From: Escherichia coli
GTDB taxonomy: Bacteria > Pseudomonadota > Gammaproteobacteria > Enterobacterales > Enterobacteriaceae
Reading direction: 5' to 3' (one strand)
Length of the DNA: 64,000 nt
NCBI RefSeq assembly: GCF_045037415.1
Contig: NZ_CP173440.1
In this document: one piece after another, positions 21,001-30,000 of the stretch
How positions within the stretch are numbered: position 1 is the first letter of the stretch
Layout of the letters: every line of letters begins with the position of its first letter
Program-made: the position numbers

Positions 21001-24000
21001 ATACACGGAAATCTGTCCCCATATCAAGACGAGGGCTGGATAGCGATATTTCTTTGTAGCCTTCACTGGATGCGATCTGCATATGCTGTAAATCGCGTGA
21101 CACATCCATCGTAACCAAACCCTCTGGGAGGTTTTTCTTTGCTACGCCCGGAGGGGCCGGGACAAATACCCCAAGCCTCAACAAAGCAACAGGTTGAACG
21201 GTACCATTGTTACCAGGGGTAAAGTTAGTAACTTTACCCGTACCCCCTACGACATTGAATGAGAATGCGGCTTGTTCTTTGATTTCATTGTTAATTTTTA
21301 ATGAGATGGTCACTCCCTCCTTCCCGGTACTATGCTGAGGATAGGCTTTCATTCGGAGAACTATCATGGAAAACATTGCGCTCATTGGTATCGATCTGGG
21401 TAAAAACTCTTTCCATATTCATTGCCAAGATCGTCGCGGCAAGGCTGTTTACCGTAAAAAATTTACACGGCCAAAGTTAATCGAATTTTTGGCGACATGC
21501 CCCGCTACAACCATCGCAATGGAAGCCTGTGGTGGCTCTCACTTTATGGCACGCAAGTTGGAAGAGTTGGGGCATTTTCCTAAGCTGATATCACCACAAT
21601 TTGTCCGTCCATTCGTTAAAAGTAACAAAAACGACTTTGTCGACGCCGAAGCTATTTGTGAAGCTGCATCGCGTCCGTCTATGCGTTTTGTACAGCCCAG
21701 AACTGAATCTCAGCAGGCAATGCGTGCGCTGCATCGTGTCCGTGAATCCCTGGTTCAGGATAAGGTAAAAACAACCAATCAGATGCATGCTTTTCTGCTG
21801 GAATTTGGCATCAGCGTTCCACGAGGAGCTGCCGTTATTAGCCGACTGAGTACCCTTCTTGAGGACAATAGTTTGCCTCTATACCTCAGCCAGTTATTGC
21901 TGAAATTACAACAGCATTATCACTATCTTGTTGAGCAGATTAAAGATTTGGAATCCCAGTTGAAACGAAAGTTGGACGAAGATGAGATTGGACAGCGCTT
22001 GCTGAGCATTCCCTGCGTCGGAACACTGACAGCGAGTACTATTTCAACTGAGATTGGCGACGGGAAGCAGTACGCCAGCAGTCGTGACTTTGCGGCGGCA
22101 ACAGGGCTGGTACCCCGACAGTACAGCACGGGAGGTCGGACGACATTGCTGGGAATTAGTAAGCGAGGTAACAAAAAGATCCGAACTTTGTTGGTTCAAT
22201 GTGCCAGGGTATTCATACAAAAACTGGAACACCAGTCTGGCAAATTGGCCGATTGGGTCAGGGATCTACTGTGTAGGAAAAGCAACTTTGTCGTCACTTG
22301 TGCTCTGGCAAACAAGCTGGCCAGAATAGCCTGGGCCCTAACGGCACGACAGCAAACTTATGTAGCATAACGGCAGAAATACACCGGTTTAAAGAATCAC
22401 TGATCTGGTTTTGCGAATACTGATATTGATGATACTAACGGCCCACCGGCCTGTTGAGGAACCTGTAAAACGGAAAGGCTCATTGAAGCCGTATATTTTC
22501 TGGAGGTTCATCAGGCGCGGAACTCATCGAGGCGCGGGAATAAAATCCCATTCAGACGCCGGATAGATTCAAGCAAGCCAATTTATCGTCAAAATCGGTG
22601 TTGCAAAAACGGGAGTGACCATAGATTCCGTTTTGATGCAGACAAAGTCCTGGAGTGTATTCTGGCTGTGCATGCTTCTGGCCATAAGGTTCTGGTCATC
22701 GGACAACCGTCAGACCATGAATTGTGCATTGGTTTACTTTCACGCTTGCCAGTGGGTTATCGTGCTATGTTCGTGAATCTGATGGGCCATCAAGACCTGC
22801 AAGAGATGTCTGGCGATGGCAAGGACAAGGGTAATTCGGAAACAAAAAACCTCCTACATTAGGACATAGGTTAACTGGTACACTTCATCCCTTGAATTAA
22901 CGGAATAACCACAGGTGAGGGCATCTTCTTGGAAAGGAGTCATGATTTGAAATTCAATAACAATCAAAATGAAAAATGTCTCAATAAGGTGTTGAGTTAT
23001 TTTTCAGAAAAAGATACTAACCTTATTGTCGTTATAATAGGGCCTTCCCGGTCAGGGAAAACCCTTCTGGCGAAGCGTGCATTATTTGATGGTTTATTTA
23101 TTTCACCAGATGAGCCGATAGCTGGTGAGAATTTTATTCAGAGTTTATCAAATAAAGATATCATCGTTGATGATGTTGTCCTTTTTGATATGCGGAATGT
23201 GTTGAAATACGTTCTTCATTCACTTGCCTCGGGAAGGAAAGTGATTTTGACCGGGCGTCCGGAAGATGAGTCTTTGTATCAGAAGCTTCTGTTAAATTTG
23301 CCTAAGGAAATTTCACCATTATTTATTAAGCTGGCGGGTGAAAATTCCTTGTATCTGTGAGCAGGGACACTTAACTAATTTGCCATCAAAATGGCATAGC
23401 TTATTTTAGGGGAGGGGGAGCTTTGAATCATCCTGTAGAGTCAGTATATAGCGCTCTGACGAGTATTTTATTGCCCTATATGGGTGAGCCTGTGCCTGTG
23501 CAACGAAATTGCTCATGCTGCGGCAGAGCTCCCTCAGAGTTCGACGGGGTAGGCTTCGAGCTGGTCAACGCCTACAGGGAACGTGTTGTGCATTGCCGCC
23601 CTTGCCAGACATTTTTTGTTTCTGCTCCAGAGCTGATGGGCGTGGAGAACCCCAAAAAACCAACAACCGGCCAGAAATTTGGCATGTGGTCTGGTGTTGG
23701 GGCTGTTATTAACGTTGAAGACAATTCTTCGGTTCTTTTAGCCCCTCAGGGAGTGGTCAATAAACTACCTGAGCATTTTTTCGATCACGTAGAAGTCATC
23801 ACGGCCACCAGCGGTCAGCATCTGGAATACCTGTTTAACACCGAACTGAAATTCCCGCTGATTTATATTCAAAACTTCGGCGTGAAAACCTACGAGCTTG
23901 TTCGCTCACTGCGGGTCAGTCTGAGTGCCGACGCAATTTATACCTGTGCCGATCAACTACTCACCCGGCAGAACGAAGTCCTTTACATGCTGGATTTAAA

Positions 24001-27000: not shown

Positions 27001-30000
27001 CCCCACGAAGAGAAGGATGACAACCCGTCCAGCTTATTCTGCACCCTATTTAACGTTTGATTTTGTCGGCTCTTCTGAGGCTGTAGAAATACTGCTTAAC
27101 CATGCCCATGTTGGCGTTGGTTATGACTTTTTCTCTGCAGCTAATGGAGAGTTTAACAATGTGACAATTCTTCCTCTCGATATCGACACGAGTATATCCA
27201 ACGAGGGTATGGCATTGCGTCCGGTACCTGTTAATTCGGGTCTGAATGGTATCAAAGGAGTATCACCACTTATTCCTCCCTATTTCGTTGGTGAAAAGCT
27301 AAACATTGTCCACCCAGCACCAGTTCGTACTCAATTGATTTCTTCTTTATTGCGAGGCTAATTTCATGAGAACTTTAAACTTCAACGGTAAAATTTCGAC
27401 TCTGGAACCACTGACTGTAACAGTAAAAAATGCGGTCTCAACTTCCGGCCATCGCTTGCCTCGTAACGGTGGATTCAATGCAGCCCCGTACTTTCCAGGT
27501 ACCAGCATTCGGGGAACTCTTCGTCATGCTGCGCATAAGGTCATTGTCGATCGTGTGGGCCTTAATGCAGACGGAAAATCACCTTTCGACCTGGCAGAAC
27601 ATTTCATGCTGGCCCAGGGGGTGGATATCAATGGTGAAGCCGAAACCTTCGCGCCAGGTGAAATCAATGCTGGTGCTGAACTACGTAGCAAAAACCCGTT
27701 AATCAGCTTGTTTGGTCGTTGGGGATTAAGCGGCAAAGTTGGTATAGGGAATGCTATCCCGGATGGTGATAACCAGTGGGGGATGTTTGGTGGGGGTGCC
27801 CGCTCAATTATGTTTCAGCGTGACGAAAGTCTGATGGAGTTTCTTGAGACAGACCAGGTTGATCGTCTGGAACGCCTGCTCGAGGAACAGGCTGAGGCAA
27901 GTGTGGATATCTCTCAGATCAAAACAGAGCAGGATGCACTCAAAAAGGCGATGAAGTCGGCTGATAAAGACACCAAAGCTGAGCTTCAAATCAAAGTACG
28001 GGAGCTCGATGAAAAAATTCAGGCCCGCAAAGATCAGAAGCAGGAATCTCGCGAGTCAATTCGCCGCCCGATTGACCCGTATGAAGCGTTTATCACCGGC
28101 GCAGAACTCAGCCATCGCATGAGTATTAAAAATGCGACTGATGAGGAAGCAGGGCTTTTCATTTCTGCATTAATCCGCTTTGCAGCCGAACCACGTTTTG
28201 GCGGTCATGCGAATCATAACTGCGGTCTGGTGGAGGCTCACTGGACAGTTACGACCTGGAAGCCGGGTGAACTGGTACCAGTTACACTTGGAGAAATCGT
28301 CATCACACCGAATGGTGTTGAGATTACCGGGGACGAGTTGTTTGCTATGGTAAAGGCATTCAATGAAAATCAATCTTTTGATTTCACTGCCCGCTAACTC
28401 CAAAAGCTGGTGGATTTTAGTGGCGCTATTTAATATTTTATAATCAACCGGTTATTTTTAGAGTATTCCCCCCGTGTGCGGGGGTTATCGGCAACCTCAA
28501 TTCCTAATGGCTGTCTAAGGAAAGTATTCCCCCCGTGTGCGGGGGTTATCGGCAGGGTTTGCCCTTTTGCACCGCGCAGCGGTCGTATTCCCCCCGAGTG
28601 CGGGGGTTATCGGAGCAACGTTTCCGGATTATATGGCTGGAACGTGTATTCCCCCCGTGTGCGGGGGTTATCGGTGGTGCTCTCAACCGTCACCCGCTGG
28701 CTGGAAGTATTCCCCCCGTGTGCGGGGGTTATCGGTGGTGTTGTCCACGGTCACCCGCTGGCTGGAAGTATTCCCCCCGCATGCGGGGGTTATCGGGCAC
28801 CCTCACGGATACCTTTTGCACAGTGTTAGTATTCCCCCCGCATGCGGGGGTTATCGCCTTAGAGAAGCAAAAACCCCACCGAGGCAGGGGTATTCCCCCC
28901 GTGTGCGGGGGTTATCGGTTACTTTTTGGCAGTTGGTAAAACACTTTTGCGTATTCCCCCCGCATGCGGGGGTTATCGGCGAAAACGGCAACCTTCATAA
29001 AAACGTCTTTTGTATTCCCCCCGTGTGCGGGGGTTATCGGCCGAGATTGAGTAAAGCAAAGTAACGGCGGTGGTATTCCCCCCGCATGCGGGGGTTATCG
29101 GCAGCGTCTGAACGGACGAAACATCCCTGTTGAGTATTCCCCCGTCTGCGGGGGTTATCGGCGAGCGCTCTCCTGGTAAATCGGTAGCTCGGAGTATTCC
29201 CCCCGCATGCGGGGGTTATCGGGCTGGATTTCCGTCAGTTGGTCAGCTGCTGCTGTATTCCCCCCGTGAGCGGGGGTTATCGGTTCCGGACTCCTGTTTC
29301 CGGCAGTGGATTAAAGTATTCCCCCCGCATGCGGGGGTTAACGGCACTACCAGATCCGAATGGACACCCGTAATGAGTATTCCCCCCGCACGCGGGGGTA
29401 TCGACATAAAAACCGCAATGGTGGGGCTTTTGTTATGTGCCCCTACAAGCAGATGGGACTTTTTACAATCAAGGAAAGTTACTTTCTTCAGGATAACCCA
29501 CATTCTGTCAAATCTTGCAGGTTGCAATCAGCAAAGGCCTTACGTCGATAAATTCATGCCTTGAGCTGGTAAGGAAGTATGACGTTATAACTCTGCATTT
29601 CTGGTTGATTAAGGTAGGGCGGCATTCCTGCTTTAAAAACAATCAATAATTTTGAACGGTAGTCGTCTTGATCCCAACTGCTACCTGATGGACTAGGCAC
29701 CTGCAAAGATCCAATTTATACTGGTTATATATACAGTGTGCGCCGGGAACCGGTTAGAGATCAAGGGGTGAAAGTCCCCGACCATTGAAGGACCAGCAAT
29801 CCACAAGGTCCCCGAGTCATGCGTTGCATACCGCGAGGTATGGGGCGAAGCGTTGACAGGGGTGTTGACAGGCCAGCCATTGAGCCACGAAATGTATATT
29901 AAATTACCGGGTGCCGACGTTGTACTGTTAACGGAAGGCAACATCATAGGGTGCGATACTGCGAGTGCCACATGGACCCGGCGGGGTCTGAGACCCTGGC

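What the first reader, a model, noticed from the sequence alone, without database searches (positions are those of the whole stretch)
22929..29405. Plasmid-borne type IV-A (DinG-associated) CRISPR-Cas locus with no adaptation or nuclease genes
The locus is a co-oriented, overlapping operon. It encodes a Zn-finger Csf1-like protein, a Cas6-sized protein, a DinG helicase (GVGKT, IIDEAD), a Cas5-sized protein and a Cas7-like protein (GTSIRGTLRH). A 16-repeat array follows 65 bp after the last gene. The 29-bp repeat has a CCCCCG/CGGGGG stem suited to Cas6 processing. No cas1, cas2, cas3 or other nuclease occurs anywhere in the 64 kb. By established knowledge, type IV-A systems are carried on conjugative plasmids. 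They silence rather than cut their targets through DinG, mostly target rival plasmids, and borrow adaptation modules from host type I systems. As I remember it, this repeat matches the IV-A3 subtype reported on Klebsiella IncHI1B/IncFIB plasmids. So the family is described, but this copy is the clearest defence or competition system in the window. It also has unusual neighbours: a split replicon upstream, and an intron-invaded SOS operon downstream.
Basis: partly seen in the sequence, partly recalled or inferred. Interest (0 to 1): 0.75.

Follow-up and report, generated by a model that had tools for sequence, protein, structure and literature searches.

The report
Known Klebsiella plasmid type IV-A3 CRISPR-Cas

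Summary
Five co-oriented, tightly packed cas genes (csf1/cas8, cas6, dinG, cas5, cas7; 23423-28397) are followed by a 65-bp leader. After that comes an array of 16 repeats and 15 spacers of 32 nt each (28463-29404).

PADLOC type IV-A3 profiles hit all five proteins (E 1e-86 to 1e-262). Four proteins are 98-100% identical to the chains of the solved K. pneumoniae IV-A3 complex (PDB 8RC2/8S35).

The 7.2-kb locus is 99.7% identical to plasmid p5419/18_1 (IncFIB/IncHI1B, conjugative). At least 402 database plasmids hold most of it.

No Cas1, Cas2, Cas3 or Cas4 profile hits any other ORF of 85 aa or more in the window.

Nine spacers match real targets: F-type transfer genes traL and traE/K, a DUF6685 gene of IncFII(K)-type plasmids, small plasmids, and temperate Klebsiella phages. 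All nine protospacers carry AAG, AGG, ATG or AAA PAMs.

Two corrections. The stated start (22929) takes in an undescribed small P-loop ORF. dinG starts at 24786.

The only loose thread is an orphan family of P-loop genes always found just upstream of csf1. One paralogue is cut here by IS4321.

The parts
23423..24214 (+). csf1 (cas8-like large subunit, 263 aa, TTG start). Its N-terminal zinc-finger domain recognises the PAM together with Cas5.
   Evidence: PADLOC Csf1gr8 5.5e-151 and Csf1_2_IVA3 1.8e-122. 263/263 identical to PDB 8RC2 chain G. The zinc-finger role is described in PMC11519345.
24211..24783 (+). cas6 (csf5, Cas6e-like endoribonuclease, 188-190 aa). It cuts the pre-crRNA at the 3' base of the repeat hairpin.
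   Evidence: PADLOC Cas6_0_IVA3 7.8e-86 and Pfam CRISPR_assoc 2.3e-07. There is no PDB chain because Cas6 could not be modelled in the IV-A3 map.
24786..26660 (+). dinG (csf4, 624 aa). A 5'-3' SF2 helicase with Walker A GVGKT and Walker B IIDEAD, and no nuclease domain. It is the effector that blocks transcription.
   Evidence: PADLOC Csf4_0_IVA 1.1e-262. Pfam DEAD and Helicase_C_2. 622/624 identical to PDB 8S35 chain M, which starts at M12 of the ORF.
26654..27361 (+). cas5 (csf3, 235 aa, GTG start). It caps the 7-nt 5' tag of the crRNA and links Cas8 to the backbone.
   Evidence: PADLOC Csf3gr5 7.2e-125. 230/235 identical to PDB 8RC2 chain F.
27366..28397 (+). cas7 (csf2, 343 aa). The backbone subunit, present in six copies per complex.
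   Evidence: PADLOC Csf2_1_IVA3 6e-151. 343/343 identical to PDB 8RC2 chain A. The six copies (Cas7.1-7.6) are described in PMC11519345.
28398..28462 (+). A 65-bp A+T-rich CRISPR leader. It is the presumed array promoter and the site where Cas1-Cas2 integrates new spacers.
   Evidence: Sequence read. Its length and the bases C(-63), G(-41) and C(-39) agree with the conserved 65-bp IV-A3 leader described in PMC7434947.
28463..29404 (+). CRISPR array of 16 repeats (29 nt; repeats 12 and 16 are 28 nt) and 15 spacers of 32 nt. The terminal repeat is degenerate.
22929..23360 (+). Adjacent gene, not shown to belong to the system. 'Gene B' is a small P-loop NTPase-like ORF of 137-143 aa, with Walker A GPSRSGKT and Walker B IIVDDV. 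It lies 62 bp upstream of csf1.
   Evidence: No Cas profile hit. It belongs to an orphan family of only 8 clusters among 1.84 billion representatives. A paralogue lies directly upstream of csf1 in two diverged loci, and before the csf1 stub of a third locus that has lost its cas operon.
22668..22862 (+). Adjacent remnant. These are the last 64 codons of P-loop paralogue 'gene A', cut by IS4321 (about 21297-22623).
   Evidence: Aligns to the C-terminus of the intact 162-aa gene in the IS-free plasmid NZ_CP132692.1 and in K. grimontii.

Best explanation
[quoted passage not shown] It works in these steps.

1. The array is transcribed from the 65-bp leader.
2. Cas6 cuts each repeat at the 3' base of its 6-bp hairpin. 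This gives units of about 61 nt: a 7-nt 5' tag UUAUCGG, a 32-nt guide and a 3' hairpin.
3. One Cas5, one Csf1/Cas8, six Cas7 and Cas6 assemble on each crRNA.
4. The complex finds double-stranded DNA carrying an AAG-like PAM, read by the Csf1 zinc-finger domain together with Cas5. It then forms an R-loop.
5. DinG is recruited in trans onto the displaced strand. No nuclease is involved. Binding plus DinG translocation blocks transcription of the target.

This array is aimed at transfer genes (traL, traE/K) and a DUF6685 gene of IncFII(K)/IncFIB(K)-type conjugative plasmids. It also targets a small ORF of small plasmids and temperate Klebsiella phages. The net effect is inter-plasmid competition and some phage defence.

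New spacers are inserted at the leader end by a host type I-E Cas1-Cas2, because the locus has no adaptation genes.

**Shown here:** gene content, identity to the characterised proteins, array anatomy, targets and PAMs, and absence of adaptation and nuclease cas genes in the window.

**Taken from the literature on near-identical proteins:** crRNA processing, complex assembly, DinG-dependent silencing and in-trans acquisition.

**Inferred:** that this particular copy is expressed.
For: - IV-A3 profiles hit all five proteins at E 1e-86 to 1e-262.
- Csf1 and Cas7 are 100%, DinG 99.7% and Csf3 97.9% identical to PDB 8RC2/8S35.
- The locus is 99.7% identical over 7201 bp to the IncFIB/IncHI1B plasmid p5419/18_1. 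At least 402 plasmids hold 80% or more of it.
- The array has 16 repeats with the stem pairs identical in every copy, a degenerate last repeat and a conserved 65-bp leader.
- Nine protospacers were inspected. Their PAMs are AAG four times, AGG three times, ATG once and AAA once. All lie within the AAN/ANG/AHA set measured for IV-A3 (PMC12714566). That set is 9 of 64 trinucleotides, so nine out of nine by chance is about 2e-8.
- Spacer 14 matches traL 32/32 in the sampled IncFII/IncFIB plasmids. About 2,700 of the 3,363 matching plasmid records drop out when S14 is removed from the query.
- Related arrays share the trailer-end spacers but lack S01-S02 or S01-S04. This is the polarity expected from acquisition at the leader end.
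- No Cas1, Cas2, Cas3 or Cas4 profile hit in 69 other ORFs.
- Published function: constitutive expression, crRNA maturation, a NAAG target motif, DinG-dependent transcriptional repression and Cas1/2e-dependent acquisition. Structures with DinG are in PMC11519345.
Against: - Nothing in the sequence argues against it.
- Expression of this copy is not shown. IS4321 lies about 800 bp upstream of csf1 and has cut the neighbouring gene A, and the position of the operon promoter is unknown. The promoter scan gave no more sites than shuffled sequence.
- The most abundant target, traL, has an ATG rather than AAG PAM. One study reports a strict NAAG requirement, while another finds ANG tolerated. Silencing of that target may therefore be weaker.
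- Six spacers (S01, S02, S06, S07, S08, S11) had no convincing match in the rows I could see.
- The host chromosome is not in the window, so a resident I-E Cas1-Cas2 cannot be checked.
Confidence: 0.93

Rival explanations
1. The locus is a silent or decaying relic in this plasmid. The genes are intact, but the operon is no longer expressed because IS4321 and the upstream rearrangement removed or displaced its promoter.
For: - IS4321 (21297 to about 22623) cuts gene A about 800 bp upstream of csf1.
- The DNA to the left of the IS differs from that in p5419/18_1. It holds a Rep3-type initiator fragment instead of the 5' half of gene A.
- Relic loci do exist. L013 keeps only a 52-aa csf1 stub and two repeats.
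Against: - All five ORFs are full length and 98-100% identical to proteins that are active in E. coli.
- Gene B and the 62-bp gap before csf1 are untouched. That gap holds the only promoter-like site near the operon start.
- The same IS4321 insertion occurs in several clinical plasmids that keep a 15-spacer array intact.
- RT-PCR and RNA-seq showed expression in related isolates.
Confidence: 0.05
2. Its main job is anti-phage defence of the host cell rather than competition between plasmids.
For: - Spacers S10 and S12 match temperate Klebsiella phages 32/32. S12 matches more than 20 phage records.
- Type IV-A3 blocked lambda-vir when aimed at essential genes.
Against: - Seven of the nine spacers with inspected targets hit plasmids: traL, traE/K, DUF6685 twice, small plasmids twice, and an IncFII/MPF_I plasmid.
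- A search with all 15 spacers matched 3,363 plasmid records but only 28 phage records.
- Published surveys find the same plasmid bias.
Confidence: 0.1
3. The small P-loop genes upstream of csf1 (gene B, and gene A before IS4321 cut it) are an unrecognised accessory or regulatory part of the IV-A3 module.
For: - They have the same orientation as the operon and sit 62-180 bp upstream of csf1 in four diverged lineages: the K. pneumoniae plasmids, K. grimontii L010, and metagenome contigs L012 and L013.
- The family is an orphan, with 8 clusters in 1.84 billion representatives. The five contexts read (the window, L010-L013) all lie next to a csf1 gene or a csf1 stub.
- The paralogues have diverged far more (about 30% identity) than the Cas proteins (70-89%).
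Against: - The K. grimontii and K. pneumoniae loci are syntenic well beyond the cas operon, so the linkage may only be shared plasmid backbone.
- The gene persists in L013, where the cas operon has been deleted.
- Gene B is absent from K. grimontii.
- The five cas genes plus the array are sufficient for interference in E. coli.
- Gene A is disrupted in this plasmid and in p5419/18_1, with no visible decay of the cas genes.
Confidence: 0.1

Closest known systems
K. pneumoniae type IV-A3 CRISPR-Cas of IncHI1B/IncFIB plasmids (model plasmids p1530 and p1793; cryo-EM structures PDB 8RC2, 8S35-8S37)
   Same: - Same five genes in the same order, followed by a 65-bp leader and an array of 29-nt repeats.
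- Csf1 and Cas7 are identical, DinG differs at 2 residues and Csf3 at 5.
- Same plasmid family.
- Same kinds of target and the same AAG-type PAM.
   Different: Only strain-level details differ.
- This array has 15 spacers. p1530 has ten.
- IS4321 is inserted in the upstream P-loop gene A.
- A group II intron sits between the array and umuDC.
Type IV-A3 loci surveyed by Newire et al. 2020 (PMC7434947)
   Same: - Located only on IncHI1B/IncFIB plasmids.
- Conserved 65-bp leader.
- Repeat variation confined to the hairpin loop.
- Spacers against traL of IncFIIK plasmids.
- Duplicated or near-duplicated spacers within one array.
- IS elements and group II introns nearby.
   Different: None of substance. 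This copy would fit in that data set.
Type IV-A1 CRISPR-Cas (Pseudomonas oleovorans / P. aeruginosa)
   Same: DinG-dependent, nuclease-free transcriptional interference by a Cascade-like Csf complex. It is plasmid-borne and has no cas1/cas2.
   Different: - IV-A1 has another gene order (dinG first).
- Its DinG carries an extra N-terminal domain.
- Its 5' tag is 8 nt and its PAM differs (5'-GNAWN-3').
- Its DinG docking interface differs.
- IV-A1 profiles score far lower here: Csf4_IVA1 at 1e-16 to 1e-17, against 1e-262 for the Csf4_0_IVA model that fits this protein.
Type I-E CRISPR-Cas (Cascade/Cas3). RefSeq labels this locus's Cas6 with this name.
   Same: - Cas6e-like processing enzyme.
- 29-nt hairpin repeat and 32/33-nt spacers.
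- AAG PAM.
- The array can be loaded by Cas1-Cas2e.
   Different: The window has no Cas3, Cse1, Cse2/Cas11, Cas1 or Cas2. The effector is a helicase without a nuclease, so the target is silenced rather than degraded.

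Membership tests
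Type IV-A3 CRISPR-Cas | Csf2 (Cas7) of the type IV clade | tested here: met
   PADLOC Csf2_1_IVA3 6e-151. 343/343 identical to 8RC2_A.
Type IV-A3 CRISPR-Cas | Small Csf1 (Cas8-like) subunit with an N-terminal zinc finger | tested here: met
   PADLOC Csf1_2_IVA3 1.8e-122. 263/263 identical to 8RC2_G. The Cys cluster C-x-CC...C-x2-C is visible in the translation.
Type IV-A3 CRISPR-Cas | Csf3 (Cas5) and a Cas6e-like Csf5 | tested here: met
   Csf3gr5 7.2e-125 and Cas6_0_IVA3 7.8e-86. Csf3 is 230/235 identical to 8RC2_F.
Type IV-A3 CRISPR-Cas | DinG (Csf4) helicase as signature effector, with no nuclease domain | tested here: met
   Csf4_0_IVA 1.1e-262. Pfam finds only DEAD, ResIII and Helicase_C_2 domains. 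622/624 identical to 8S35_M.
Type IV-A3 CRISPR-Cas | Gene order cas8-cas6-dinG-cas5-cas7 followed by leader and array | tested here: met
   Coordinates. The same order is listed for the cloned system in PMC12714566.
Type IV-A3 CRISPR-Cas | No cas1, cas2 or cas3/cas10 in the locus | tested here: met
   A PADLOC scan of 69 other ORFs of 85 aa or more gave only one unrelated hit, mad8. The apparent Cas1_IIIb hit came from the group II intron reverse transcriptase and vanished once that ORF was removed. The rest of the replicon is outside the window.
Type IV-A3 CRISPR-Cas | I-E-like 29-nt hairpin repeat and conserved 65-bp leader | tested here: met
   The leader length and three diagnostic bases agree with PMC7434947.
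Type IV-A3 CRISPR-Cas | Carried on IncHI1B/IncFIB conjugative plasmids | tested here: met
   Window 21297-64000 is colinear at 99.9% with p5419/18_1, which is typed IncFIB, IncHI1B, MOBH and MPF_F. The window itself encodes MobH, TraD and TraF/H/G.
Type IV-A3 CRISPR-Cas | Spacers mostly against other plasmids, with protospacers flanked by a 5'-AAG-type PAM | tested here: met
   Nine protospacers: 7 on plasmids and 2 on phages. PAMs are AAG x4, AGG x3, ATG and AAA.
Type IV-A3 CRISPR-Cas | Cas6-processed crRNAs and DinG-dependent transcriptional silencing | not testable with these tools
   Shown experimentally for identical or near-identical proteins. Not measured for this copy.
Type IV-A3 CRISPR-Cas | Spacer acquisition in trans by host type I-E Cas1-Cas2 | not testable with these tools
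   The host chromosome is not in the window. Indirect support comes from the AAG-type PAMs, the terminal G of the repeat, and spacer differences between related arrays at the leader end.
Type I-E CRISPR-Cas | Cas3 helicase-nuclease, Cse1, Cse2/Cas11 and Cas1-Cas2 present | tested here: not met
   None was found in the window. Only Cas6 resembles Cas6e (7e-10).
Type IV-A1 CRISPR-Cas | IV-A1-type DinG and Csf proteins, with dinG first in the operon | tested here: not met
   IV-A1 and AFERR models score far below the models that fit this locus. NCBIfam models also fall below their cut-offs: cas_csf4 83.7 bits against 400, and cas7_csf2 50.1 against 130. The gene order differs.

The most novel reading that the evidence does not exclude
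The orphan P-loop NTPase-like genes that always sit just upstream of csf1 could be an unrecognised accessory or regulator of type IV-A3 systems. Gene B is at 22929-23360. Its paralogue gene A is cut here by IS4321. They might tune cas expression or DinG loading. If so, the IS4321 insertion would have changed how this copy behaves.
Probability: 0.08. Interest if true: 0.45.

Novelty: already known. Interest (0 to 1): 0.13.

Why it matters
As a discovery it matters little. The system has been described, dissected genetically, solved by cryo-EM and even engineered.

As annotation it is useful.
- RefSeq labels four of the five Cas proteins 'hypothetical' or 'helicase C-terminal domain-containing', and calls Cas6 'type I-E'. 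NCBIfam models fall below their cut-offs. A reader of the public record would therefore miss the system.
- The spacer list says which elements this multidrug-resistance megaplasmid is set to suppress. These are IncFII(K)/IncFIB(K) conjugative plasmids, through traL, traE/K and a DUF6685 gene, as well as small plasmids and temperate Klebsiella phages. That bears on plasmid epidemiology in clinical Klebsiella.

Tried and rejected
- **NCBIfam and Pfam** gave only generic or sub-threshold hits for the Csf proteins. The IV-A3 models in PADLOC were needed.
- **Rfam** at gathering threshold found no CRISPR repeat family. It found only the group II intron and sok.
- **The first PADLOC scan of all other ORFs** was swamped by 71 reverse-transcriptase families. 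It included a misleading 'Cas1_IIIb' hit caused by the intron RT. I repeated it without that ORF.
- **The single remaining hit (mad8, 2.8e-14)** could not be assigned. Ten candidate ORFs tested individually were negative.
- **Self-targeting.** No spacer matches the window outside the array with 7 or fewer mismatches.
- **The genome-contig scan with Csf1** returned only one diverged locus, in K. grimontii.
- **P-loop genes as an IV-A3 accessory.** I considered this and did not adopt it. Synteny extends over the whole backbone. The gene survives where the cas operon is deleted. It is dispensable for interference in published reconstitutions.
- **Promoter and terminator scan.** It found no more sites than in shuffled sequence, so I name no operon promoter.
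- **Type I-E or IV-A1 membership** was rejected (see the membership test).

Full report
**1. What is in the sequence**

Between 23423 and 28397 the + strand carries five tightly packed ORFs.
- csf1: 263 aa, TTG start.
- cas6: 190 aa, overlapping csf1 by 4 nt.
- dinG: ORF from 24753, real start ATG 24786, 624 aa, with GVGKT and IIDEAD.
- cas5: 235 aa, overlapping dinG by 7 nt.
- cas7: 343 aa, with GTSIRGTLRH.

Exactly 65 bp after the cas7 stop codon an array begins at 28463 and runs to 29404.
- It has 16 repeats at a strict 61-nt period and 15 spacers, all 32 nt.
- The repeat consensus is GTATTCCCCCCGTGTGCGGGGGTTATCGG.
- It folds into a 6-bp CCCCCG/CGGGGG stem with a 4-nt loop (-12.1 kcal/mol).
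- The stem pairs are identical in all 16 copies. Variation lies in the loop, in the 3' tail, and in one C lost from the C-run of repeat 12.
- Repeat 12 has lost one C. The last repeat is degenerate, which places the leader next to cas7.

Sixteen in-register copies cannot arise by chance.

**2. Identity of the proteins**

General libraries say little.
- Pfam sees helicase domains, a RAMP and a Cas6e-type domain.
- NCBIfam's type IV models are built on IV-A1/AFERR systems and stay far below their cut-offs. cas_csf4 scores 83.7 bits against 400, and cas7_csf2 scores 50.1 against 130.
- This explains why RefSeq calls most of these genes 'hypothetical protein'.

The subtype-specific models in PADLOC are decisive:

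| Protein | Model | E-value |
|---|---|---|
| Csf1 | Csf1_2_IVA3 | 1.8e-122 |
| Cas6 | Cas6_0_IVA3 | 7.8e-86 |
| DinG | Csf4_0_IVA | 1.1e-262 |
| Cas5 | Csf3gr5 | 7.2e-125 |
| Cas7 | Csf2_1_IVA3 | 6e-151 |

Compared with solved structures (K. pneumoniae IV-A3 complex, PDB 8RC2 and 8S35-8S37):

| Protein | Identity to PDB chain |
|---|---|
| Csf1 | 263/263 |
| Cas7 | 343/343 |
| Csf3 | 230/235 |
| DinG | 622/624 |

Cas6 has no PDB chain because it could not be modelled in that map.

**3. Where it sits**

- The 7.2-kb locus is 99.7% identical, in one piece, to K. pneumoniae plasmid p5419/18_1. That plasmid is 349 kb and typed IncFIB/IncHI1B, MOBH, MPF_F, conjugative.
- At least 402 PLSDB plasmids, nearly all from Klebsiella, hold 80% or more of the locus.
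- Window 21297-64000 is colinear with that plasmid at 99.9%. It carries umuDC, RES-Xre and hok/sok addiction modules, and MobH, TraD and TraF/H/G.
- Window 1-11415 is the same plasmid's DNA in inverted orientation.
- Window 11416-21296 differs. It holds an ISL3 transposase, a Rep3-type initiator, DUF4942 and DUF6012.

**4. No adaptation or nuclease cas genes**

I scanned 69 further ORFs of 85 aa or more against PADLOC. Only one unrelated family (mad8) matched, and there was no Cas1, Cas2, Cas3, Cas4 or Cas10. An earlier scan seemed to show 'Cas1_IIIb'. That came from the reverse transcriptase of the group II intron matching an RT-Cas1 fusion model, and it disappeared when the ORF was removed.

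The window also encodes a NERD-domain protein, a relaxase and transposases.

**5. What the array targets**

All spacers were searched together against plasmids and phages. Nine protospacers were read with their flanks.

| Spacer | Target | Match | PAM |
|---|---|---|---|
| S14 | last codons of traL in IncFII/IncFIB(K) conjugative Klebsiella plasmids | 32/32 | ATG |
| S15 | traE/K | 31/32 | AAG |
| S03 | DUF6685 gene of IncFII-type conjugative plasmids | 32/32 | AAG |
| S13 | the same DUF6685 gene | 32/32 | AGG |
| S04 | 73-aa ORF on small plasmids | 31/32 | AGG |
| S05 | the same 73-aa ORF | 31/32 | AGG |
| S09 | IncFII/MPF_I plasmid | 29/32 | AAG |
| S10 | temperate Klebsiella phages | 32/32 | AAG |
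| S12 | temperate Klebsiella phages | 32/32 | AAA |

- With all 15 spacers, 3,363 plasmid records matched. Without S14, 682 matched. So about 2,700 records match through S14 alone, and every S14 row sampled was traL.
- S04 and S05 differ from each other at 4 of 32 positions, three of them spaced three bases apart. They look like two alleles of one protospacer.
- All nine PAMs fall in the AAN/ANG/AHA set measured for a IV-A3 system (PMC12714566). That set is 9 of 64 trinucleotides, so nine out of nine by chance is about 2e-8.
- No spacer matches the window itself.
- Arrays on related plasmids share the trailer-end spacers but lack S01-S02 or S01-S04. This is the pattern left by acquisition at the leader end.

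**6. How it works**

The mechanism is taken from work on proteins identical or nearly identical to these.
- Expression is constitutive, and Cas6 processes the transcript at the base of the hairpin.
- A complex of Cas8, Cas5, several Cas7 and Cas6 assembles, and DinG joins in trans.
- Target recognition depends on an AAG motif.
- The target is repressed transcriptionally rather than cut. DinG is needed inside transcribed regions.
- Spacers are acquired with the host's type I-E Cas1-Cas2 (bioRxiv 10.1101/2023.06.23.546257).
- Cryo-EM shows six Cas7 subunits and a 7-nt 5' tag. The Cas8 zinc-finger domain and Cas5 read the PAM, and a Cas7-Cas8-Cas5 interface docks DinG (PMC11519345).

Published RNA-seq shows some 3' trimming. 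Expression of this particular copy is inferred, not shown.

**7. Comparison with what is known, and novelty**

The locus meets every sequence-testable defining feature of type IV-A3. It fails those of type I-E and type IV-A1 (see the membership test). Newire et al. 2020 (PMC7434947) already reported all of the following:
- the restriction to IncHI1B/IncFIB plasmids;
- the 65-bp leader;
- the AAG motif;
- traL-targeting spacers;
- repeated spacers within one array;
- neighbouring IS elements and group II introns.

This copy is therefore already known.

**8. The one loose thread**

- It is 137-143 aa, with Walker A GPSRSGKT and Walker B IIVDDV, and no Cas profile matches it.
- Just upstream, 22668-22862 is the 3' remnant of a 30%-identical paralogue, gene A. 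IS4321 has cut it. Gene A is intact (162 aa) in the IS-free plasmid NZ_CP132692.1.
- The family is an orphan, with 8 clusters among 1.84 billion representatives.
- In every context read (the window, L010-L013), a member lies directly upstream of a csf1 gene or a csf1 stub. This includes K. grimontii, whose Cas proteins are 70-89% identical, and two metagenome contigs.

Several facts argue against a functional link.
- The K. grimontii and K. pneumoniae loci are syntenic far beyond the cas operon.
- The gene persists where the cas operon has been deleted (L013).
- The five cas genes plus an array are sufficient for interference in E. coli.

I therefore treat the linkage as probably backbone synteny. 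I give about 8% to the idea that these genes are an accessory of the system.

**9. Neighbours**

- The group II intron occupies about 29740-31646. It is inserted 26-27 nt upstream of the umuD start codon, in the same orientation, so it is not inside a coding sequence.
- IS4321 joins a Rep3-type initiator fragment on its left to the gene A remnant on its right.
- Both elements also occur in p5419/18_1.

Noticed in passing
window 22929-23360 (+) and 22668-22862 (+); L011 4749-5237; L010 8337-8825; L012 20-493; L013 1080-1568: An orphan family of small P-loop NTPase-like genes (137-162 aa) lies directly upstream of csf1, or of the csf1 stub in L013, in four diverged lineages. K. pneumoniae plasmids carry two paralogues that are 30% identical. 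K. grimontii carries one. This window's gene B has R where all homologues have G in the Walker A motif (GPSRSGKT against GPSGSGKT).
   Followed up: partly
window 21297 to about 22623 (IS4321; transposase 21366-22370): IS4321 (IS110 family) has split P-loop gene A. In this window its left flank is a Rep3-type initiator ORF (20234-21385, minus strand) whose first codons run into the IS. In p5419/18_1 the left flank is the 5' half of gene A. This points to an IS-associated rearrangement. Window 1-11415 is inverted relative to that plasmid.
   Followed up: partly
window about 29740-31646 (+): A group II intron (Rfam D1-D4 at 29771-29996, RT/maturase at 30101-31588) is inserted 26-27 nt upstream of the umuD start codon (31674), in the same orientation. 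It lies in the leader or promoter region of umuDC, not in a coding sequence. Its RT gives a spurious 'Cas1_IIIb' PADLOC hit.
   Followed up: partly
L013 (Logan SRR31968078 contig) 1568-2260: A relic IV-A3 locus. The P-loop gene is followed by only the first 52 codons of csf1, two degenerate repeats with one spacer, and then umuD. The whole cas operon has been deleted, but the flanks are kept.
   Followed up: partly
window 28675-28706 (S04) and 28736-28767 (S05); 28614-28645 (S03) and 29223-29254 (S13): Two pairs of spacers are aimed at one gene each. S04 and S05 are allelic versions (28/32 identical) of a protospacer in a 73-aa ORF next to an integrase or recombinase on small rep_cluster_2358 plasmids. 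S03 and S13 hit different sites of a DUF6685 gene on IncFII-type conjugative plasmids.
   Followed up: yes
window 29284-29315 (S14); L002 1498-1532: The most widespread target is the 3' end of traL. About 2,700 plasmid records match through S14, and in the one site read (L002) the PAM is ATG, not AAG. Changing it to AAG would need a Asp-to-Glu change in TraL. Published PAM studies disagree on whether ATG is accepted.
   Followed up: partly
window 40726-41252 and 61361-61888: A segment of about 528 bp is present twice in direct orientation at 92.6% identity. Each copy covers a 117-aa hypothetical ORF.
   Followed up: no
window 33387-34375 (+), 35297-35472 (+): Plasmid addiction modules lie downstream of umuDC. 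One is a Xre-antitoxin/RES-toxin pair. The other is a hok/sok locus (Rfam sok, 96.9 bits).
   Followed up: no
window, ORF not identified: One ORF outside the cas operon matches the PADLOC model mad8 (MADS system) at 2.8e-14. Ten candidate ORFs tested individually were negative, so the source is still unknown. It may be one of the large conjugation ATPases.
   Followed up: partly
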